IMG/VR virus record: IMGVR_UViG_3300010430_000025
Span: 9,394 to 73,393 of that record
Direction: 5' to 3' (one strand)
DNA from: a virus
Length of the DNA: 64,000 nucleotides
The position numbers were made by a program, and so were the translations under genes. This document shows positions 33,902 through 58,350 of this stretch, in pieces. The notes under the pieces are model-generated. The model ran no database searches, had not been told where the DNA came from, and saw only the letters and a list, made by a program, of their open reading frames with translations. How positions within the stretch are numbered: position 1 is the stretch's first letter; every line of letters begins with the position of its first letter.

Positions 33902-34377
33902 AATATTGGTTTATATGGATTAGTTGGTAATGTAGTAGCATCTATAGCTTGGTTGGTGGAGATGAGGTTGAATAGGTCGAAATGTTGACTTAATAAATGA
34001 ATCATTATTTTAGGTGCAAAAACATCTAAATATAGAGTGCGGTCTTTGCCATTATAATAATCATAATTTACAACTAGGTCATATTTTGGATTGTCTCTAG
34101 GTCCGTACTTCTGTTTCCATAAACGTACATTACTAACTAAACCAGAAATTCCTCTAGTTAGTTTTATAAACTCTATCAACTCCTCATCTGTTATAGATGA
34201 TAAGGGGCGAAGAATAGGCTTAACACCTTTAAAATTTTTTCGACTGTATTGTAAAAACCATGTAGGATTAAGTGTTCTTATGTAAATCAAAGGTTTGCTT
34301 GTGTCCGTGCTTATACTTTCAACTTGAACCTTACAGCCCATATACAAATGCCAGTCTTTAAATTGTGTTTCTTTCAT
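33898..34377 (-). CDS. hypothetical protein (PILRPLS family)
   Basis: KPILRPLS, HFDLFNLI. Confidence 0.7.
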   Translation of the reverse strand: MKETQFKDWHLYMGCKVQVESISTDTSKPLIYIRTLNPTWFLQYSRKNFKGVKPILRPLSSITDEELIEFIKLTRGISGLVSNVRLWKQKYGPRDNPKYDLVVNYDYYNGKDRTLYLDVFAPKIMIHLLSQHFDLFNLISTNQAIDATTLPTNPYKPIL

Positions 34378-34501: not shown

Positions 34502-34745
34502 AAAAAAGGGTCTCGGAACACTGTTTACCCAAGCATTGACACTTCCTTCCTGTGCCTCTCGTGAGGTTTTTAGGTCATATATAACACACGTTATTGTTTT
34601 TTGTCAGGACTTGCTCGAAGGGGTCAAACGAAGCAAGATTTTATACGTGCCCTTAGTTATATAAGGTCAATGTGAGTGGCTATTTTTATCATCCCTAACT
34701 ATTCCAATAGGGCATTGAGGCGGTACAGCCCATATAGAACCGCCA
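34502..34745 (-). ncRNA. candidate structured ncRNA, unknown family
   Basis: GC-enriched segment with no ORF in the track; nested helices CATTGAC/GTCAATG, TATATAAC/GTTATATA, GCACGT/ACGTGT, CTTGCT/AGCAAG. Confidence 0.5.
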
Positions 34746-34830: not shown

Positions 34831-34966
34831 AAAAAAAGAAGCGCCCTCACTATGTATACCAAAACAAAGAGCAGAAGGCGCTATATAATTTCGAAGATTT
34901 ACTTCAAAGATAATACATGTTGTGCGAAATATTCTCATTTCTCTTTGTTTTGGTATAGCAAAGATA
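34831..34966 (-). promoter_or_regulatory. promoter plus terminator/antiterminator leader
   Basis: TATCTTTG at 34959-34966; 17-bp inverted repeat 34941-34957/34855-34871; hairpin AGCGCCTTC/GAGGGCGCT plus T tract. Confidence 0.65.
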
Positions 34967-35003
34967 ACGGTAAATAAATTTAAGATGCAAGAAAAAGTTT
35001 TTG

Positions 35004-35088
35004 TGAGGCTAATTGGATTCGAACCAATTGTGTATCAAAGTACCAGTTTTACAGACTGGCGCAACTCCACCATCGTTGCCGTAACCTC
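35004..35088 (-). tRNA. tRNA-Tyr(GTA)
   Basis: cloverleaf, CCAGT-CTGTAAA-ACTGG, long variable arm, TTCGAAT, A73, no CCA. Confidence 0.93.
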
Positions 35089-35093
35089 ATTTG

Positions 35094-35178
35094 CGGAGAG
35101 TGAAGGATTCGAACCCTCACCAGTGTTACCTGCACTCCGTTTTCAAGACGGGGGCATTACCGTTAATGCTAACTCTCC
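35094..35178 (-). tRNA. tRNA-Ser(TGA)
   Basis: GGAGAGT acceptor, CCGT-CTTGAAA-ACGG, long variable arm, G73. Confidence 0.93.
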
Positions 35179-35182
35179 GTTG

Positions 35183-35269
35183 CGGAAGAAAAGAGAATTG
35201 AACTCTTGCCGCTTTTACACGGACTACTTTAGCAGAGTAGCGCAACAAACCAACATTTGCCTTCCTTCC
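35183..35269 (-). tRNA. tRNA-Ser(GCT)
   Basis: CTACT-CTGCTAA-AGTAG, long variable arm, G73. Confidence 0.9.
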
Positions 35270-35273
35270 ATTG

Positions 35274-35346
35274 TACTCGGAGCGGGATTCGAACCCGCAG
35301 CATACAGATTTTAAGTCTGTCGTGTTTACCTTTTCACCACCCGAGC
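35274..35346 (-). tRNA. tRNA-Leu(TAA), short variable loop
   Basis: ACAGA-CTTAAAA-TCTGT, 5-nt variable loop, GCGGG-TTCGAAT-CCCGC, A73. Confidence 0.92.
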
Positions 35347-35351
35347 AATTG

Positions 35352-35426
35352 TACCTTGTATAGGATTCGAACCTATAAAATTTTTGTTCCTAAGACAAAC
35401 GCGTATACCAATTCCGCCAACAAGGC
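35352..35426 (-). tRNA. tRNA-Leu(TAG), short variable loop
   Basis: GGCGGAATTGGTATACGCG D arm, TTTGT-CTTAGGA-ACAAA, 6-nt variable loop, A73. Confidence 0.92.
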
Positions 35427-35428
35427 AT

Positions 35429-35460
35429 AAAAAAAGCCCCAAGATTTCTCAAGGGGCTTT
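35429..35460 (-). terminator. attenuator terminator (3:4) directly upstream of tRNA operon
   Basis: AAAGCCCC-TTGAGAAATCTT-GGGGC-TTTTTTT, 2 nt before first tRNA. Confidence 0.88.
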
Positions 35461-35480
35461 GTATAAATATTATAATTTAC

Positions 35481-35549
35481 TCAATATAGTCCCTTAGCGT
35501 GCCGTAACGACAAACTTAAATAAAGACTATATAGAGTTGTTATCTTCAT
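35481..35549 (-). CDS. attenuator leader peptide MKITTLYSLYLSLSLRHAKGLY
   Basis: ATG 5 nt after TATCTTTG; ten consecutive Leu/Tyr/Ser codons matching the downstream tRNAs. Confidence 0.85.
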   Translation of the reverse strand: MKITTLYSLYLSLSLRHAKGLY

Positions 35550-35554
35550 GGCAA

Positions 35555-35627
35555 CAAAGATAAAACAAGAATTTATAAAAGCAAGTGAAAAATAAATTTT
35601 GTTTTTAGTTTTTTATTCATACCTTTG
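35555..35627. promoter_or_regulatory. divergent Bacteroidota sigma-A promoters
   Basis: minus TTG-N19-TATCTTTG (35555-35584); plus TTTG-N18-TACCTTTG (35598-35627). Confidence 0.8.
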
Positions 35628-35649
35628 AAGTGTTTAAAATTAAAACATT

Positions 35650-35910
35650 ATGAATATAAATATAGATTTGGATGAGTTTAGCGATGAAGAAGTGGTGAAA
35701 TACGTTATTAATAGGTATGAAAACAAAAGCCATTTTCCTCTTAATGAAGAGTTAAAACAGAAACTTGTAGAATCGGTTTCTGGAGTACAGCCCATTTCTG
35801 TATTATTTAATATTGAGTGTCAAAGCGTAGAGGGGCAAATAAAAATAGAACTACTACAAACAGCATTTGAAAAGTATAGTTTAGTTGAACTTGAAAATAA
35901 ATTAAAATAA
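35650..35910 (+). CDS. hypothetical protein
   Basis: first gene after plus promoter. Confidence 0.7.
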   Translation: MNINIDLDEFSDEEVVKYVINRYENKSHFPLNEELKQKLVESVSGVQPISVLFNIECQSVEGQIKIELLQTAFEKYSLVELENKLK

Positions 35911-39926: not shown

Positions 39927-40019
39927 AAAACCTCCTGCGGTTAAACAAGAGGCTAAACTTTTATTATGAATACAAAAGGAGACGTTTCCCAACGGTCATT
40001 TGTAGATACAGCAAAGATA
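39925..40019 (-). ncRNA. candidate antisense small RNA (about 85 nt)
   Basis: minus TATCTTTG at 40012-40019, then terminator CCTCTTG..CAGGAGG-TTTTTT inside a plus-strand operon. Confidence 0.55.
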
Positions 40020-48988: not shown

Positions 48989-48996
48989 TATCTTTG
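48989..48996 (+). promoter_or_regulatory. sigma-A -7 element
   Basis: TTG..TATCTTTG. Confidence 0.7.
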
Positions 48997-49411: not shown

Positions 49412-49484
49412 GGGGCAATGGTGTAACGGTTAACATATTCGGGTCGCTCCCGTTTGAGTTCAGGTTCGAATCCTGATTGCTCCA
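49412..49484 (+). tRNA. tRNA-like RNA with Ala identity (G3:U70, A73), nominal CGC anticodon, aberrant anticodon arm
   Basis: GGGGCAA/TTGCTCC acceptor, GTGT/ACAT D stem, TCAGG-TTCGAAT-CCTGA T arm. Confidence 0.75.
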
Positions 49485-49571
49485 CAAAACTAAAATCAAG
49501 GTGAATAAGAGCGACCTTACGCTTATTGATTAGCTACCAATGAGTGGACAAAGCAACCTTTAATTAAAGTT

Positions 49572-58313: not shown

Positions 58314-58350
58314 AAATTACTTGCATTAATCTAAAATAGTAGTATCTTTG
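58314..58350 (+). promoter_or_regulatory. early promoter, near-copy of 56955-56994
   Basis: AAATTACTTGCA..ATCTAAAATA..GTATCTTTG. Confidence 0.8.

What the first reader, a model, noticed from the sequence alone, without database searches (positions are those of the whole stretch)
35004..35584. Leader-peptide attenuator that senses Leu/Ser/Tyr decoding and controls a phage operon of exactly those tRNAs
Seen on the minus strand: promoter TTG-N19-TATCTTTG, then 5 nt later ATG AAG ATA ACA ACT CTA TAT AGT CTT TAT TTA AGT TTG TCG TTA CGG CAC GCT AAG GGA CTA TAT TGA (35549-35481, MKITTLYSLYLSLSLRHAKGLY). A terminator follows (35460-35429), ending 2 nt before tRNAs Leu(TAG), Leu(TAA), Ser(GCT), Ser(TGA), Tyr(GTA). 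Ten consecutive codons are Leu/Tyr/Ser and every tRNA is represented: CTA/CTT, TTA/TTG, AGT, TCG, TAT (about (14/61)^10 = 4e-7 under uniform codon use, higher with AT bias). Mutually exclusive pairings are present: 1:2 ATATAGTCTTT/AGGGACTATAT; 2:3 TAAGGGACT/AGCCCCTTG (one mismatch); 3:4 GCCCC/GGGGC plus U7. Established: this is the trp/his/thr/pheST attenuator layout, where stalling on segment 1 frees segment 2 to form the antiterminator. Inference: the regulated products here are the tRNAs themselves, giving a feedback loop that makes replacement tRNAs only when host Leu/Ser/Tyr tRNAs are cleaved or uncharged, for example by anti-phage tRNases. I know of no described leader-peptide attenuator controlling a phage tRNA array.
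Basis: partly seen in the sequence, partly recalled or inferred. Interest (0 to 1): 0.96.

Follow-up and report, generated by a model that had tools for sequence, protein, structure and literature searches.

The report
Leader-peptide switch gating phage tRNA genes
A marine phage places a tiny test gene written in leucine, serine and tyrosine codons, followed by a switchable transcription stop, directly in front of its own Leu/Ser/Tyr tRNA genes, so it probably makes these tRNAs only when ribosomes read those codons slowly.

Summary
A Bacteroidota-type promoter (TTG-N19-TATCTTTG) sits 5 nt before an ATG. A 22-codon ORF follows, with ten consecutive Leu/Tyr/Ser codons. Then come a 1:2 hairpin, a terminator with U7, and, 2 nt later, tRNAs Leu, Leu, Ser, Ser, Tyr.

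The codon run is not a composition effect: 3 of 20,000 dinucleotide shuffles reach it, and 0 of 20,000 reach it with all five tRNAs sampled. With a ribosome stalled in the run, the nascent RNA folds into a 2:3 antiterminator.

I found no homologue of this locus, so I tested the idea on other phages.
- In a blind IMG/VR sample, 8 of 171 tRNA blocks had an upstream ORF matching their own amino-acid set at rank <=0.01. Controls gave 1-2 each.
- A second sample gave 0 of 97, so the design is patchy.
- Three cultured Flavobacteriia phages (Cellulophaga phi19:1 and phi10:1, Tenacibaculum Gundel_1) show the same layout, each leader tracking its own tRNAs.

Best reading (about 0.68): a trp/his-style leader-peptide attenuator applied to tRNA genes. 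No expression data exist. The anti-defence trigger is speculation.

Ten literature searches found no description. This scan has flagged the same design before on other DNA.

The parts
35555..35584 (-). Bacteroidota sigma-A type promoter: TTG (35584-35582), 19-nt spacer, TATCTTTG (35562-35555)
   Evidence: Read. The same TTG-N19/21-TATCTTTG occurs six times in the window. In Flavobacterium psychrophilum the TAnnTTTG box lies at -12 to -5 (PMC9723704, passages). That puts +1 at 35550 or 35549, so the ORF is leaderless or has a 1-nt leader.
35481..35549 (-). Leader ORF, 22 codons plus TGA: MKITTLYSLYLSLSLRHAKGLY
   Evidence: 12 of 21 codons after Met are Leu/Ser/Tyr, against 19.4% in the phage's genes (p 1.5e-4). 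No amino-acid set from 220 other tRNA blocks scores as well on this ORF (rank 0.0045).
35505..35534 (-). Control run: ten consecutive Leu/Tyr/Ser codons that sample all five downstream tRNAs
   Evidence: Shuffles reach a run of 10 or more in 3 of 20,000, and with all five tRNAs in 0 of 20,000.
35521..35537 (-). Segment 1, the 5' arm of the 1:2 hairpin; overlaps codons 5-10
   Evidence: Folds: the 1:2 hairpin alone is -19.5 kcal/mol, z -2.57, with 2 of 200 shuffles as good.
35479..35496 (-). Segment 2, the 3' arm of 1:2. It contains the stop codon TGA (35483-35481); its TAAGGGACT core can pair with segment 3
   Evidence: A ribosome at the stop codon masks it.
35448..35460 (-). Segment 3, the 5' arm of the terminator (AAAGCCCCTTGAG)
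   Evidence: With a ribosome stalled at codons 8-12, the nascent RNA pairs 8 of 10 arm bases upstream, -11.0 kcal/mol. 12 of 2,000 shuffles are as good on both energy and pairing.
35429..35460 (-). Intrinsic terminator: hairpin 35460-35433 plus U7 (35435-35429), ending 2 nt before the first tRNA
   Evidence: About -15.4 kcal/mol.
35003..35426 (-). Regulated genes: tRNA-Leu(TAG) 35426-35351, Leu(TAA) 35346-35273, Ser(GCT) 35269-35182, Ser(TGA) 35178-35093, Tyr(GTA) 35088-35003
   Evidence: ARAGORN. Rfam tRNA matches for four of them; the fifth (Tyr) matches best as tRNA-Sec below threshold.

Best explanation
This is a ribosome-mediated (leader-peptide) transcription attenuator that gates a phage tRNA operon.

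The host sigma-A polymerase starts at or 1 nt before the ATG, giving a leaderless mRNA. Three states follow.
1. No ribosome engages. Segments 1 and 2 pair, segments 3 and 4 form the terminator, and transcription stops 2 nt before tRNA-Leu.
2. A ribosome runs quickly to the TGA, which lies inside segment 2. It masks segment 2 and the terminator again forms.
3. The ribosome lingers in the ten-codon Leu/Tyr/Ser run because charged tRNAs for these codons are scarce. It covers segment 1, segment 2 pairs with segment 3, the terminator cannot form, and polymerase reads into the five tRNA genes.

The new tRNAs then speed up decoding and shut the switch. This is a negative feedback that matches phage tRNA supply to decoding demand.

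Shown: the sequence parts, their geometry, the statistical excess, and parallel cases in other phages. Inferred: translation of the ORF, the coupling, the direction of regulation, and the physiological trigger.
For: (1) All parts are present in the right order. Any transcript entering the tRNAs must pass the terminator, because only 2 nt separate them and the next genes upstream lie on the other strand.

(2) The Leu/Ser/Tyr run is rare by chance: 3 of 20,000 shuffles, and 0 of 20,000 with all five tRNAs sampled. The ORF ranks at the floor (0.0045) against 220 other amino-acid sets.

(3) Switch folds. Without a ribosome the 1:2 hairpin forms (-19.5 kcal/mol). With a ribosome at codons 8-12 the 2:3 antiterminator forms (-11.0). 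A ribosome at the stop codon masks segment 2. Only 12 of 2,000 shuffles give as good an antiterminator.

(4) The ATG lies 5 nt after the -7 box. An identical box lies 4 nt before the ATG of a genuine 142-aa gene (30955-30527; phrog_22771, E 2.9e-49). The phage therefore seems to use leaderless starts.

(5) Class-level test, blind to leaders. 119 IMG/VR tRNA-array loci were used. Of 171 blocks with an ATG ORF, the window excluded, 8 rank <=0.01 for their own amino-acid set (p 3.6e-4). Controls gave 1 of 132 on the reverse strand, 2 of 141 downstream and 1 of 142 far upstream. The match goes with an upstream terminator: 4 of 33 against 4 of 187. Six of the 8 show ORF, then GC hairpin with U run, then tRNAs.

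(6) In ten such loci the distance from stop codon to terminator arm is 21-32 nt; it is 20 nt in the window. The antiterminator beats shuffles in most of them.

(7) Covariation in related leaders. L055 and L079 share the ATG, segment 2 and the terminator but differ in the middle codons, as their tRNAs differ. Cellulophaga phages phi19:1 and phi10:1 share the promoter (95% over 64 nt). Their leaders are ..HIQRLPQPKR.. before Pro, Gln, His, Leu, Arg and ..WSYSCFSYSF.. before Tyr, Trp, Phe, Ser, Cys. Tenacibaculum phage Gundel_1 has ..LYSYSCFSSWF.. before Trp, Phe, Ser, an undetermined tRNA and Ser, with TATGTTTG 4 nt before its ATG. Shuffles as good: 2 of 20,000, 2 of 20,000 and 151 of 20,000. 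Each leader fits its own block best.

(8) The host group uses this mechanism. 'Strong clues' of leader-peptide attenuation at amino-acid operons are reported in F. psychrophilum (PMC9723704, passages). The phage's primase/helicase is closest to those of Riemerella, Cellulophaga and Flavobacterium phages.
Against: - No homologue of this leader or array was found, so there is no conservation evidence at this locus.
- No RNA run holds the phage, so translation, termination and read-through are all unobserved.
- The replication sample failed. 68 further IMG/VR loci gave 0 of 97 blocks at rank <=0.01 or <=0.05, and only 10 of 143 blocks had an upstream terminator. Pooled, 8 of 268 gives p 0.006. 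The design is therefore confined to some lineages, or the first sample overstates it.
- The within-phage sign test over all blocks is null: 155 against 144.
- Strict terminators upstream of blocks are as frequent on the reverse strand, 13 of 228 against 15 of 228.
- Codon-level matching is not significant (p 0.27).
- At equilibrium the full-length RNA always keeps the terminator. The 2:3 helix has a mismatch and a wobble and is weaker (-11.0 against about -15.4), so the switch must be kinetic.
- Leaderless mRNAs are a minority in Bacteroidota: 5.5% in F. psychrophilum and 3.7% with a 5'UTR under 10 nt in B. thetaiotaomicron.
- Part of the run (CTATATAG) is also constrained by the 1:2 stem.
- For Gundel_1 and phi10:1 some tRNAs are called only at a relaxed ARAGORN threshold. 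A Tyr-like stretch in Gundel_1 is called by no tool. With called tRNAs only, Gundel_1's best window is 7 of 10 by my own count of the leader peptide, run in no call.
Confidence: 0.68

Rival explanations
1. The leader is untranslated and constitutive. The promoter drives a structured 5' leader whose terminator is simply leaky and sets a fixed, low tRNA output, or whose hairpins serve processing and stability. The ORF and its Leu/Ser/Tyr run are a by-product of T-rich, partly palindromic sequence.
For: There are no expression data. The terminator forms in every equilibrium fold. Part of the run lies in the 1:2 stem. The codon-level match is not significant. Most tRNA blocks in both samples have no matching ORF. 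Leaderless starts are rare in the phylum.
Against: The run is reached by 3 of 20,000 shuffles that keep composition. The stop codon sits in segment 2 and the spacing matches ten other loci. Four Flavobacteriia-type phages each carry a leader written in their own block's amino acids, which a by-product does not explain.
Confidence: 0.2
2. The promoter-to-terminator unit is a gene in its own right, either a small RNA of about 120 nt or a 22-residue hydrophobic peptide with its own function. The tRNAs are made by incidental read-through.
For: Two hairpins plus a U tail is a typical small-RNA shape. The phage has other promoter-hairpin-terminator units without long ORFs at 34966-34795 and near 40012. 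The peptide is hydrophobic.
Against: Neither a peptide nor a small-RNA function predicts that leader composition follows the tRNA set in phi19:1, phi10:1, Gundel_1, and L055 against L079. No Rfam family reaches threshold.
Confidence: 0.08
3. The leader RNA senses tRNA directly, T-box-like, without translation.
For: It is a terminator/antiterminator leader in front of translation-related genes.
Against: No T-box match appears even at E<=10. There is no specifier-loop or T-box motif. The signal lies in a reading frame that starts with ATG at the predicted transcript start.
Confidence: 0.02

Closest known systems
Multivalent leader-peptide attenuators of enterobacterial amino-acid operons (ilvGMEDA: Ile/Val/Leu; thr: Thr/Ile), and single-amino-acid ones (trp, his, leu, pheA). 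Recalled from established knowledge, not from a call.
   Same: A short ORF close to the promoter carries a run of control codons. It has 1:2, 2:3 and 3:4 alternative pairings, a stop codon placed so that a finishing ribosome favours the terminator, and an intrinsic terminator before the regulated genes. Several amino acids are sensed at once.
   Different: The regulated genes are tRNAs, not biosynthetic enzymes. The quantity restored by induction is therefore tRNA, not amino acid. The element is phage-borne, has a Bacteroidota-type promoter and the ORF is leaderless. There is no sequence membership: Rfam Phe_leader scores 24.8 bits against a threshold of 55, and His_leader 19.8 against 49.
pheST (phenylalanyl-tRNA synthetase) attenuator of E. 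coli (recalled)
   Same: Leader-peptide attenuation is applied to a gene of the translation apparatus rather than to biosynthesis.
   Different: It controls a synthetase and senses one amino acid. Here the products are the decoding tRNAs themselves.
Anabaena sp. PCC 7120 trn operon: a silent 26-gene tRNA array induced by translational stress (PMC8421152, passages; PMC10272220, abstract)
   Same: An accessory tRNA operon is kept off and switched on when translation is impaired.
   Different: Control there is at the promoter, through direct repeats bound by the repressor TrcR. The words leader, attenuat- and terminator do not occur in PMC8421152. It is a cellular megaplasmid, not a phage, and has no codon-specific sensing.
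T-box riboswitches (recalled)
   Same: A terminator/antiterminator leader reports on tRNA status.
   Different: T-boxes bind uncharged tRNA directly and need no translation. No T-box match is found here.
Earlier follow-up reports of this scan on other phages (phiCbK-like, crAss-like, giant and lake phages). These are AI notes, unpublished.
   Same: The same proposed design: a mini-ORF in the block's amino acids, then a terminator, then a tRNA block.
   Different: Different phage lineages and hosts. This case adds a Bacteroidota promoter, a leaderless start, a Leu/Ser/Tyr-only set, and cultured Flavobacteriia phage counterparts that I found independently.

Membership tests
Leader-peptide (ribosome-mediated) transcription attenuators | A short ORF with a usable start codon close to the transcript 5' end | tested here: met
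   A 22-codon ATG ORF starts 5 nt after the -7 box. The predicted +1 lies 0-1 nt before the ATG. A real gene in the same phage has the same arrangement.
Leader-peptide (ribosome-mediated) transcription attenuators | The ORF is actually translated and coupled to transcription | not testable with these tools
   No RNA or ribosome-profiling data exist. Only two DNA runs hold the phage.
Leader-peptide (ribosome-mediated) transcription attenuators | A run of control codons that correspond to the regulated product | tested here: met
   Ten consecutive Leu/Tyr/Ser codons stand before Leu, Leu, Ser, Ser, Tyr tRNAs. Shuffles reach this in 3 of 20,000; rank 0.0045. The codon level beyond the amino-acid level is not significant.
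Leader-peptide (ribosome-mediated) transcription attenuators | An intrinsic terminator between the ORF and the regulated genes | tested here: met
   Hairpin 35460-35433 plus U7 ends 2 nt before the first tRNA.
Leader-peptide (ribosome-mediated) transcription attenuators | Mutually exclusive 1:2, 2:3 and 3:4 pairings, with the stop codon placed so that a terminating ribosome blocks the antiterminator | tested here: met
   Masked folds of the nascent RNA. The antiterminator beats shuffles: 12 of 2,000 are as good. TGA lies inside segment 2. This is in silico only; at equilibrium the terminator always wins.
Leader-peptide (ribosome-mediated) transcription attenuators | The regulated genes encode amino-acid biosynthesis enzymes (or a synthetase) | tested here: not met
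   The regulated genes are five tRNAs. It therefore works like this family but is a new variant, not a classical member.
Leader-peptide (ribosome-mediated) transcription attenuators | Conservation or covariation of the leader in homologous loci | tested here: inconclusive
   No homologous locus was found. Analogous loci covary. One blind sample was positive (8 of 171) and a second was null (0 of 97).
Rfam leader families (Phe_leader, His_leader, trpB motif) | A score at or above the family's gathering threshold | tested here: not met
   24.8 against 55, 19.8 against 49 and 27.2 against 59 bits; E 0.18-1.8.
T-box riboswitch | A match to the T-box covariance model | tested here: not met
   No T-box row among the 22 matches at E<=10.

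The most novel reading that the evidence does not exclude
Leu, Ser and Tyr are exactly the three bacterial tRNA types with a long variable arm, and both phage Leu tRNAs have lost that arm. The most novel reading is that the leader acts as an infection-time alarm. A host defence that depletes or cleaves long-arm tRNAs would stall ribosomes in the Leu/Tyr/Ser run. That would open the attenuator and release replacement tRNAs, two of them reshaped to escape the nuclease. The element would then be a translation-coupled sensor of anti-phage tRNA attack. It would also be one member of a widespread, unpublished class of tRNA-supply sensors in phages that could be tested in cultured Cellulophaga and Tenacibaculum phages.
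Probability: 0.12. Interest if true: 0.92.

Novelty: new variant of a known kind. Interest (0 to 1): 0.8.

Why it matters
Phage tRNA genes are usually discussed as constitutive codon-usage patches or as decoys against tRNA-cleaving defences. How their expression is controlled is almost unstudied. A leader-peptide attenuator in front of them would mean the phage measures decoding speed at exactly the codons it can supply and makes tRNAs on demand. That would extend a textbook mechanism from amino-acid supply to tRNA supply.

The practical gain is that the idea becomes testable. I found the same layout, unannotated, in three cultured phages of culturable marine Flavobacteriia: Cellulophaga phages phi19:1 and phi10:1, and Tenacibaculum phage Gundel_1. 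Their leaders differ as their tRNA sets differ.

It also gives a simple annotation rule: promoter, then a mini-ORF in the block's amino acids, then 20-32 nt, then a terminator, then tRNAs. The rule can find operon starts and hidden tRNAs in phage genomes.

Tried and rejected
Homologues of this locus: none found.
- blastn of 34900-35700 against GenBank phages gave only short tRNA matches in 4 records.
- Relatives of the downstream 159-aa gene in IMG/VR carry no tRNA array: 0 of 3 loci and then 0 of 24; one odd single tRNA turned up.
- Five related virus records hold only 3 single tRNAs in 2 of the 5.
- Patterns for an adjacent arm-less Leu(TAG)+Leu(TAA) pair gave 0 hits in viral and in metagenome contigs.
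- A Ser(TGA)-Tyr(GTA) pattern gave one unrelated locus.
- A segment-2 plus terminator pattern gave 0 hits in metagenomes.
- The portal protein has no match in GenBank phages.
- L102 has no GenBank phage match, and L133 only short ones.
- The phi10:1 leader has no further relatives.

Expression: no RNA holder is listed. Two marine-sediment DNA runs hold the stretch and may be its source. Laying their contigs showed identical sequence and no variants, so there is no microdiversity information.

Rfam: only sub-threshold, chance-level matches to leader families.

Codon-level specificity was rejected as evidence. The within-phage sign test over all blocks is null. Strand asymmetry of strict terminators upstream of blocks is absent.

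Replication sample: null, 0 of 97. I report it as evidence against generality.

The four-leader DNA alignment does not establish homology of the window's leader with the cultured-phage leaders. Only Gundel_1 and phi10:1 look alike.

The single tRNA-Ala(CGC) at 49412 has no such leader.

Supplementary files of papers were not consulted. Supplementary TSS tables of PMC9723704 might refine the box-to-start spacing.

Rows left out:
- Blocks with one tRNA, with more than 8 amino acids, or with under 100 nt upstream were excluded before the rank tests (221 of 546 kept; 143 of 370).
- L033 and L053 were dropped from the second sample because they were already in the first.
- Some loci of a sample come from one contig or from near-identical phages, so blocks are not fully independent.
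- The ten loci were picked from the best-ranked ones (ranks 0.005-0.032), not at random.
Full report
WHAT IS THERE.

The window is 64 kb of a single 73,393-bp phage contig with 35% G+C. It encodes a portal, a terminase and a primase/helicase. The primase/helicase is closest to those of Riemerella, Cellulophaga and Flavobacterium phages, at 31-39% identity. The DNA occurs in two marine-sediment metagenome runs.

Between two divergent gene blocks lies a non-coding stretch. Plus-strand genes start at 35650 and minus-strand genes at 34377. On the minus strand this stretch carries five tRNA genes: Leu(TAG), Leu(TAA), Ser(GCT), Ser(TGA) and Tyr(GTA), at 35426-35003.

- TTG at 35584-35582, a 19-nt spacer, then TATCTTTG at 35562-35555.
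- Five bases, then ATG at 35549.
- The ORF MKITTLYSLYLSLSLRHAKGLY, ending in TGA at 35481.
- A hairpin at 35460-35433 with a U7 run, ending 2 nt before tRNA-Leu.

PROMOTER AND START.

TAnnTTTG is the -7 box of the Bacteroidota primary sigma factor (PMC7366714, passages). In Flavobacterium psychrophilum it lies at -12 to -5 (PMC9723704, passages). The transcript should therefore begin at 35550 or 35549, which makes the ORF leaderless or nearly so.

The exact box with TTG 19-21 nt upstream occurs six times in the window. One copy lies 4 nt before the ATG of a 142-aa gene (30955-30527) that matches phrog_22771 at E 2.9e-49 from its fourth residue. Leaderless starts from this promoter type are thus plausible in this phage. 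In the host phylum they are a minority, 5.5% and 3.7%.

IS THE CODON RUN CHANCE?

- Ten consecutive codons encode Leu, Tyr or Ser. All five tRNAs are sampled, CTT only by extended wobble.
- Dinucleotide-preserving shuffles of the 123-nt leader reach a run of 10 or more in any frame in 3 of 20,000 cases. With all five tRNAs represented they reach it in 0 of 20,000.
- The six frames of the whole genome hold two runs of 10 or more.
- Against the phage's own genes (19.4% Leu+Ser+Tyr), 12 of 21 codons gives p 1.5e-4.
- At codon level there is no extra signal. 80% of the phage's Leu/Ser/Tyr codons are cognate to these tRNAs anyway (p 0.27).

STRUCTURE.

- The minimum-energy fold of the leader has a long 1:2 hairpin and the terminator: -35.2 kcal/mol, z -4.85. 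Segment 1 is 35537-35521 and overlaps codons 5-10. Segment 2 is 35495-35479 and contains the stop codon.
- The nascent RNA, before the 3' terminator arm exists, forms 1:2 when no ribosome is present.
- With a ribosome footprint placed on codons 8-12, it forms a 2:3 structure of -11.0 kcal/mol. This pairs 8 of 10 bases of the terminator's 5' arm.
- Only 12 of 2,000 shuffles of the intervening sequence do as well on both energy and pairing.
- A ribosome at the stop codon masks segment 2.
- At equilibrium the terminator always wins, so any switch must be kinetic, as in the classical cases.

COMPARATIVE EVIDENCE AT THIS LOCUS: NONE.

I found no homologous array or leader in GenBank phages, IMG/VR or JGI metagenomes. 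No RNA run holds the phage. Contigs of the two DNA runs are identical to the window.

TESTING THE IDEA ON OTHER PHAGES.

First sample. I fetched 119 IMG/VR loci chosen only for three consecutive canonical T-loops and called tRNAs with ARAGORN. I split them into blocks, allowing gaps of up to 70 nt. For each block of two or more tRNAs and at most 8 amino acids, I scored the best upstream ATG ORF (8-70 codons, within 250 nt) for enrichment in the block's amino acids. I then ranked that score against the amino-acid sets of blocks from other loci.
- Of 172 blocks with an ORF, 9 ranked <=0.01. One of them is the window. Without it the count is 8 of 171, p 3.6e-4.
- Controls behaved as null: 1 of 132 on the reverse strand, 2 of 141 downstream, 1 of 142 far upstream.
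- The match goes with a terminator in the last 90 nt: 4 of 33 against 4 of 187, Fisher p 0.019.
- Six of the eight independent hits show ORF, then GC hairpin with U run, then tRNAs. One (L141) has no U run and one (L117) I did not inspect.

Examples from the first sample:
- L127: MTMNVFEHEFFAAERAAAEFAAAAFEAF.. stands before Glu, Ala, Phe, Ala.
- L127, a second block: MTYVMNTNNTNPNNNPEVLQD stands before Asn, Asn, Pro, Pro.
- L055 and L079 are homologous leaders. They share the ATG, segment 2 and the terminator, but their middle codons differ as their tRNA sets differ.

In ten such loci the stop codon lies 21-32 nt before the terminator arm, against 20 nt in the window. The antiterminator beats shuffles in most of them.

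RESULTS AGAINST GENERALITY.

- A second sample of 68 new loci, chosen for three GGTTCAAATCC T-loops, gave 0 of 97 at rank <=0.01 or <=0.05. Only 10 of 143 of its blocks had an upstream terminator.
- Pooled, 8 of 268 gives p 0.006.
- A within-phage sign test over all blocks is null, 155 against 144.
- Strict terminators upstream of blocks are as common on the reverse strand.
- The design is therefore real in some lineages at most, not a general property of phage tRNA arrays.

CULTURED COUNTERPARTS.

I reached three cultured marine Flavobacteriia phages through tRNA similarity alone. All three show the same layout, and the leaders are unannotated in their records.

- Cellulophaga phage phi19:1. 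TAATTTTG, 12 nt, then ATG. The leader is MNNNTIHIQRLPQPKRFGEF.., followed by a terminator with U7 and then tRNAs Pro, Gln, His, Leu, Arg.
- Cellulophaga phage phi10:1. It shares that promoter at 95% over 64 nt. Its leader is MLKKWSYSCFSYSFKNGEVIL, followed by tRNAs Tyr, Trp, Phe, Ser, Cys. Trp and Ser are called only at a relaxed ARAGORN threshold. Cys is also found by Rfam.
- Tenacibaculum phage Gundel_1. TATGTTTG lies 4 nt before the ATG. Its leader is MKTKLYSYSCFSSWFKNRAG, followed by a terminator and then Trp (relaxed call only), Phe, Ser, an undetermined tRNA with a TTGCAAC loop, and Ser. A Tyr-like stretch there is called by no tool. With called tRNAs only, its best window is 7 of 10 rather than 10 of 10 (my own count, run in no call).

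Shuffles as good as observed: 2 of 20,000 for phi10:1, 2 of 20,000 for Gundel_1 and 151 of 20,000 for phi19:1. In a cross table each of the four leaders fits its own block best. The diagonal is 10, 10, 10 and 8 of 10; off the diagonal the highest value is 7.

MECHANISM.

The best reading is a trp/his-type attenuator whose output is tRNA. Slow decoding of Leu/Ser/Tyr codons stalls the ribosome on segment 1. That frees segment 2 to hold segment 3, and polymerase runs into the tRNA genes. Fast decoding, or no translation at all, ends in termination.

Shown: the parts, their geometry, the statistics and the parallels. Inferred: translation, coupling, the direction of regulation and the trigger.

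Amino-acid starvation would also stall the ribosome, but extra tRNA would not relieve it. The useful signal is therefore tRNA supply against phage demand. Whether tRNA-cleaving defences are the trigger is open.

KNOWN OR NEW?

Ten full-text searches found no paper that describes leader-peptide attenuation of tRNA genes, in phages or elsewhere. The nearest in print is the Anabaena trn operon. It is induced by translational stress but controlled by a promoter-bound repressor (abstract; passages).

This scan has flagged and followed up the same design before in other phage lineages. Those are unchecked AI notes, and I did not use them as evidence. My tests were made on loci of my own choosing.

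VERDICT.

- Observation: confirmed.
- Interpretation: partly supported.
- Kind: a new variant of a known mechanism.
- Confidence in the attenuator reading: about 0.68.
- Interest: 0.8.

Noticed in passing
window 35426-35273 (minus strand): Both tRNA-Leu genes are short (76 and 74 nt) with a 5-6 nt variable loop instead of the long arm typical of bacterial tRNA-Leu. The two Ser tRNAs keep a long arm, and Tyr has a 13-nt, poorly paired variable region. Leu, Ser and Tyr together are the bacterial long-arm set.
   Followed up: partly
window 34966-34795 (minus strand): Right after tRNA-Tyr comes a second TTG-N21-TATCTTTG promoter. It is followed by a 17-nt stretch whose complement recurs about 70 nt downstream, a 47-codon ORF and two terminator-like hairpins (about 34870-34845 and 34792-34765). 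This may be a second switchable leader.
   Followed up: no
window 34502-34745 (minus strand): About 245 nt with no ORF and several GC-rich helices lie between the terminators and the gene at 34377. No Rfam family matches, even at E<=10.
   Followed up: partly
window 30967-30953, 34966-34959, 35562-35555, 40019-40012 (minus); 48989-48996, 58343-58350 (plus): There are six copies of the exact -7 box TATCTTTG with TTG 19-21 nt upstream, probably one promoter class of the phage. The copy at 30967-30960 lies 4 nt before the ATG of a 142-aa gene (phrog_22771), which implies a leaderless mRNA.
   Followed up: partly
L220 2841-2993 (KC821607.1), L222 1563-1694 (KC821618.1), L221 1031-1159 (MT732474.1): Three cultured Flavobacteriia phages carry unannotated mini-ORF plus terminator leaders before their tRNA blocks. 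They also carry tRNAs missing from the records: tRNA-Pro in phi19:1, and Trp, Ser and Cys in phi10:1.
   Followed up: partly
L127 3975-4224 and 9052-9301; L133 3591-3840 and 12491-12740: Two uncultured phages each carry several tRNA blocks, each behind its own leader in that block's amino acids (Asn/Pro and Ala/Glu/Phe; Asn and Asp/Pro/Gln). In each case a terminator follows 24-32 nt after the stop codon.
   Followed up: partly
window 49412-49485 (plus strand): The sixth tRNA, Ala(CGC), stands alone after a 78-aa ORF. It has no matching leader and no terminator in front of it.
   Followed up: partly
L221 1886-2452 (MT732474.1): In Tenacibaculum phage Gundel_1 an annotated HNH endonuclease CDS overlaps the start of tRNA-Pro and splits the tRNA region into two blocks.
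   Followed up: no
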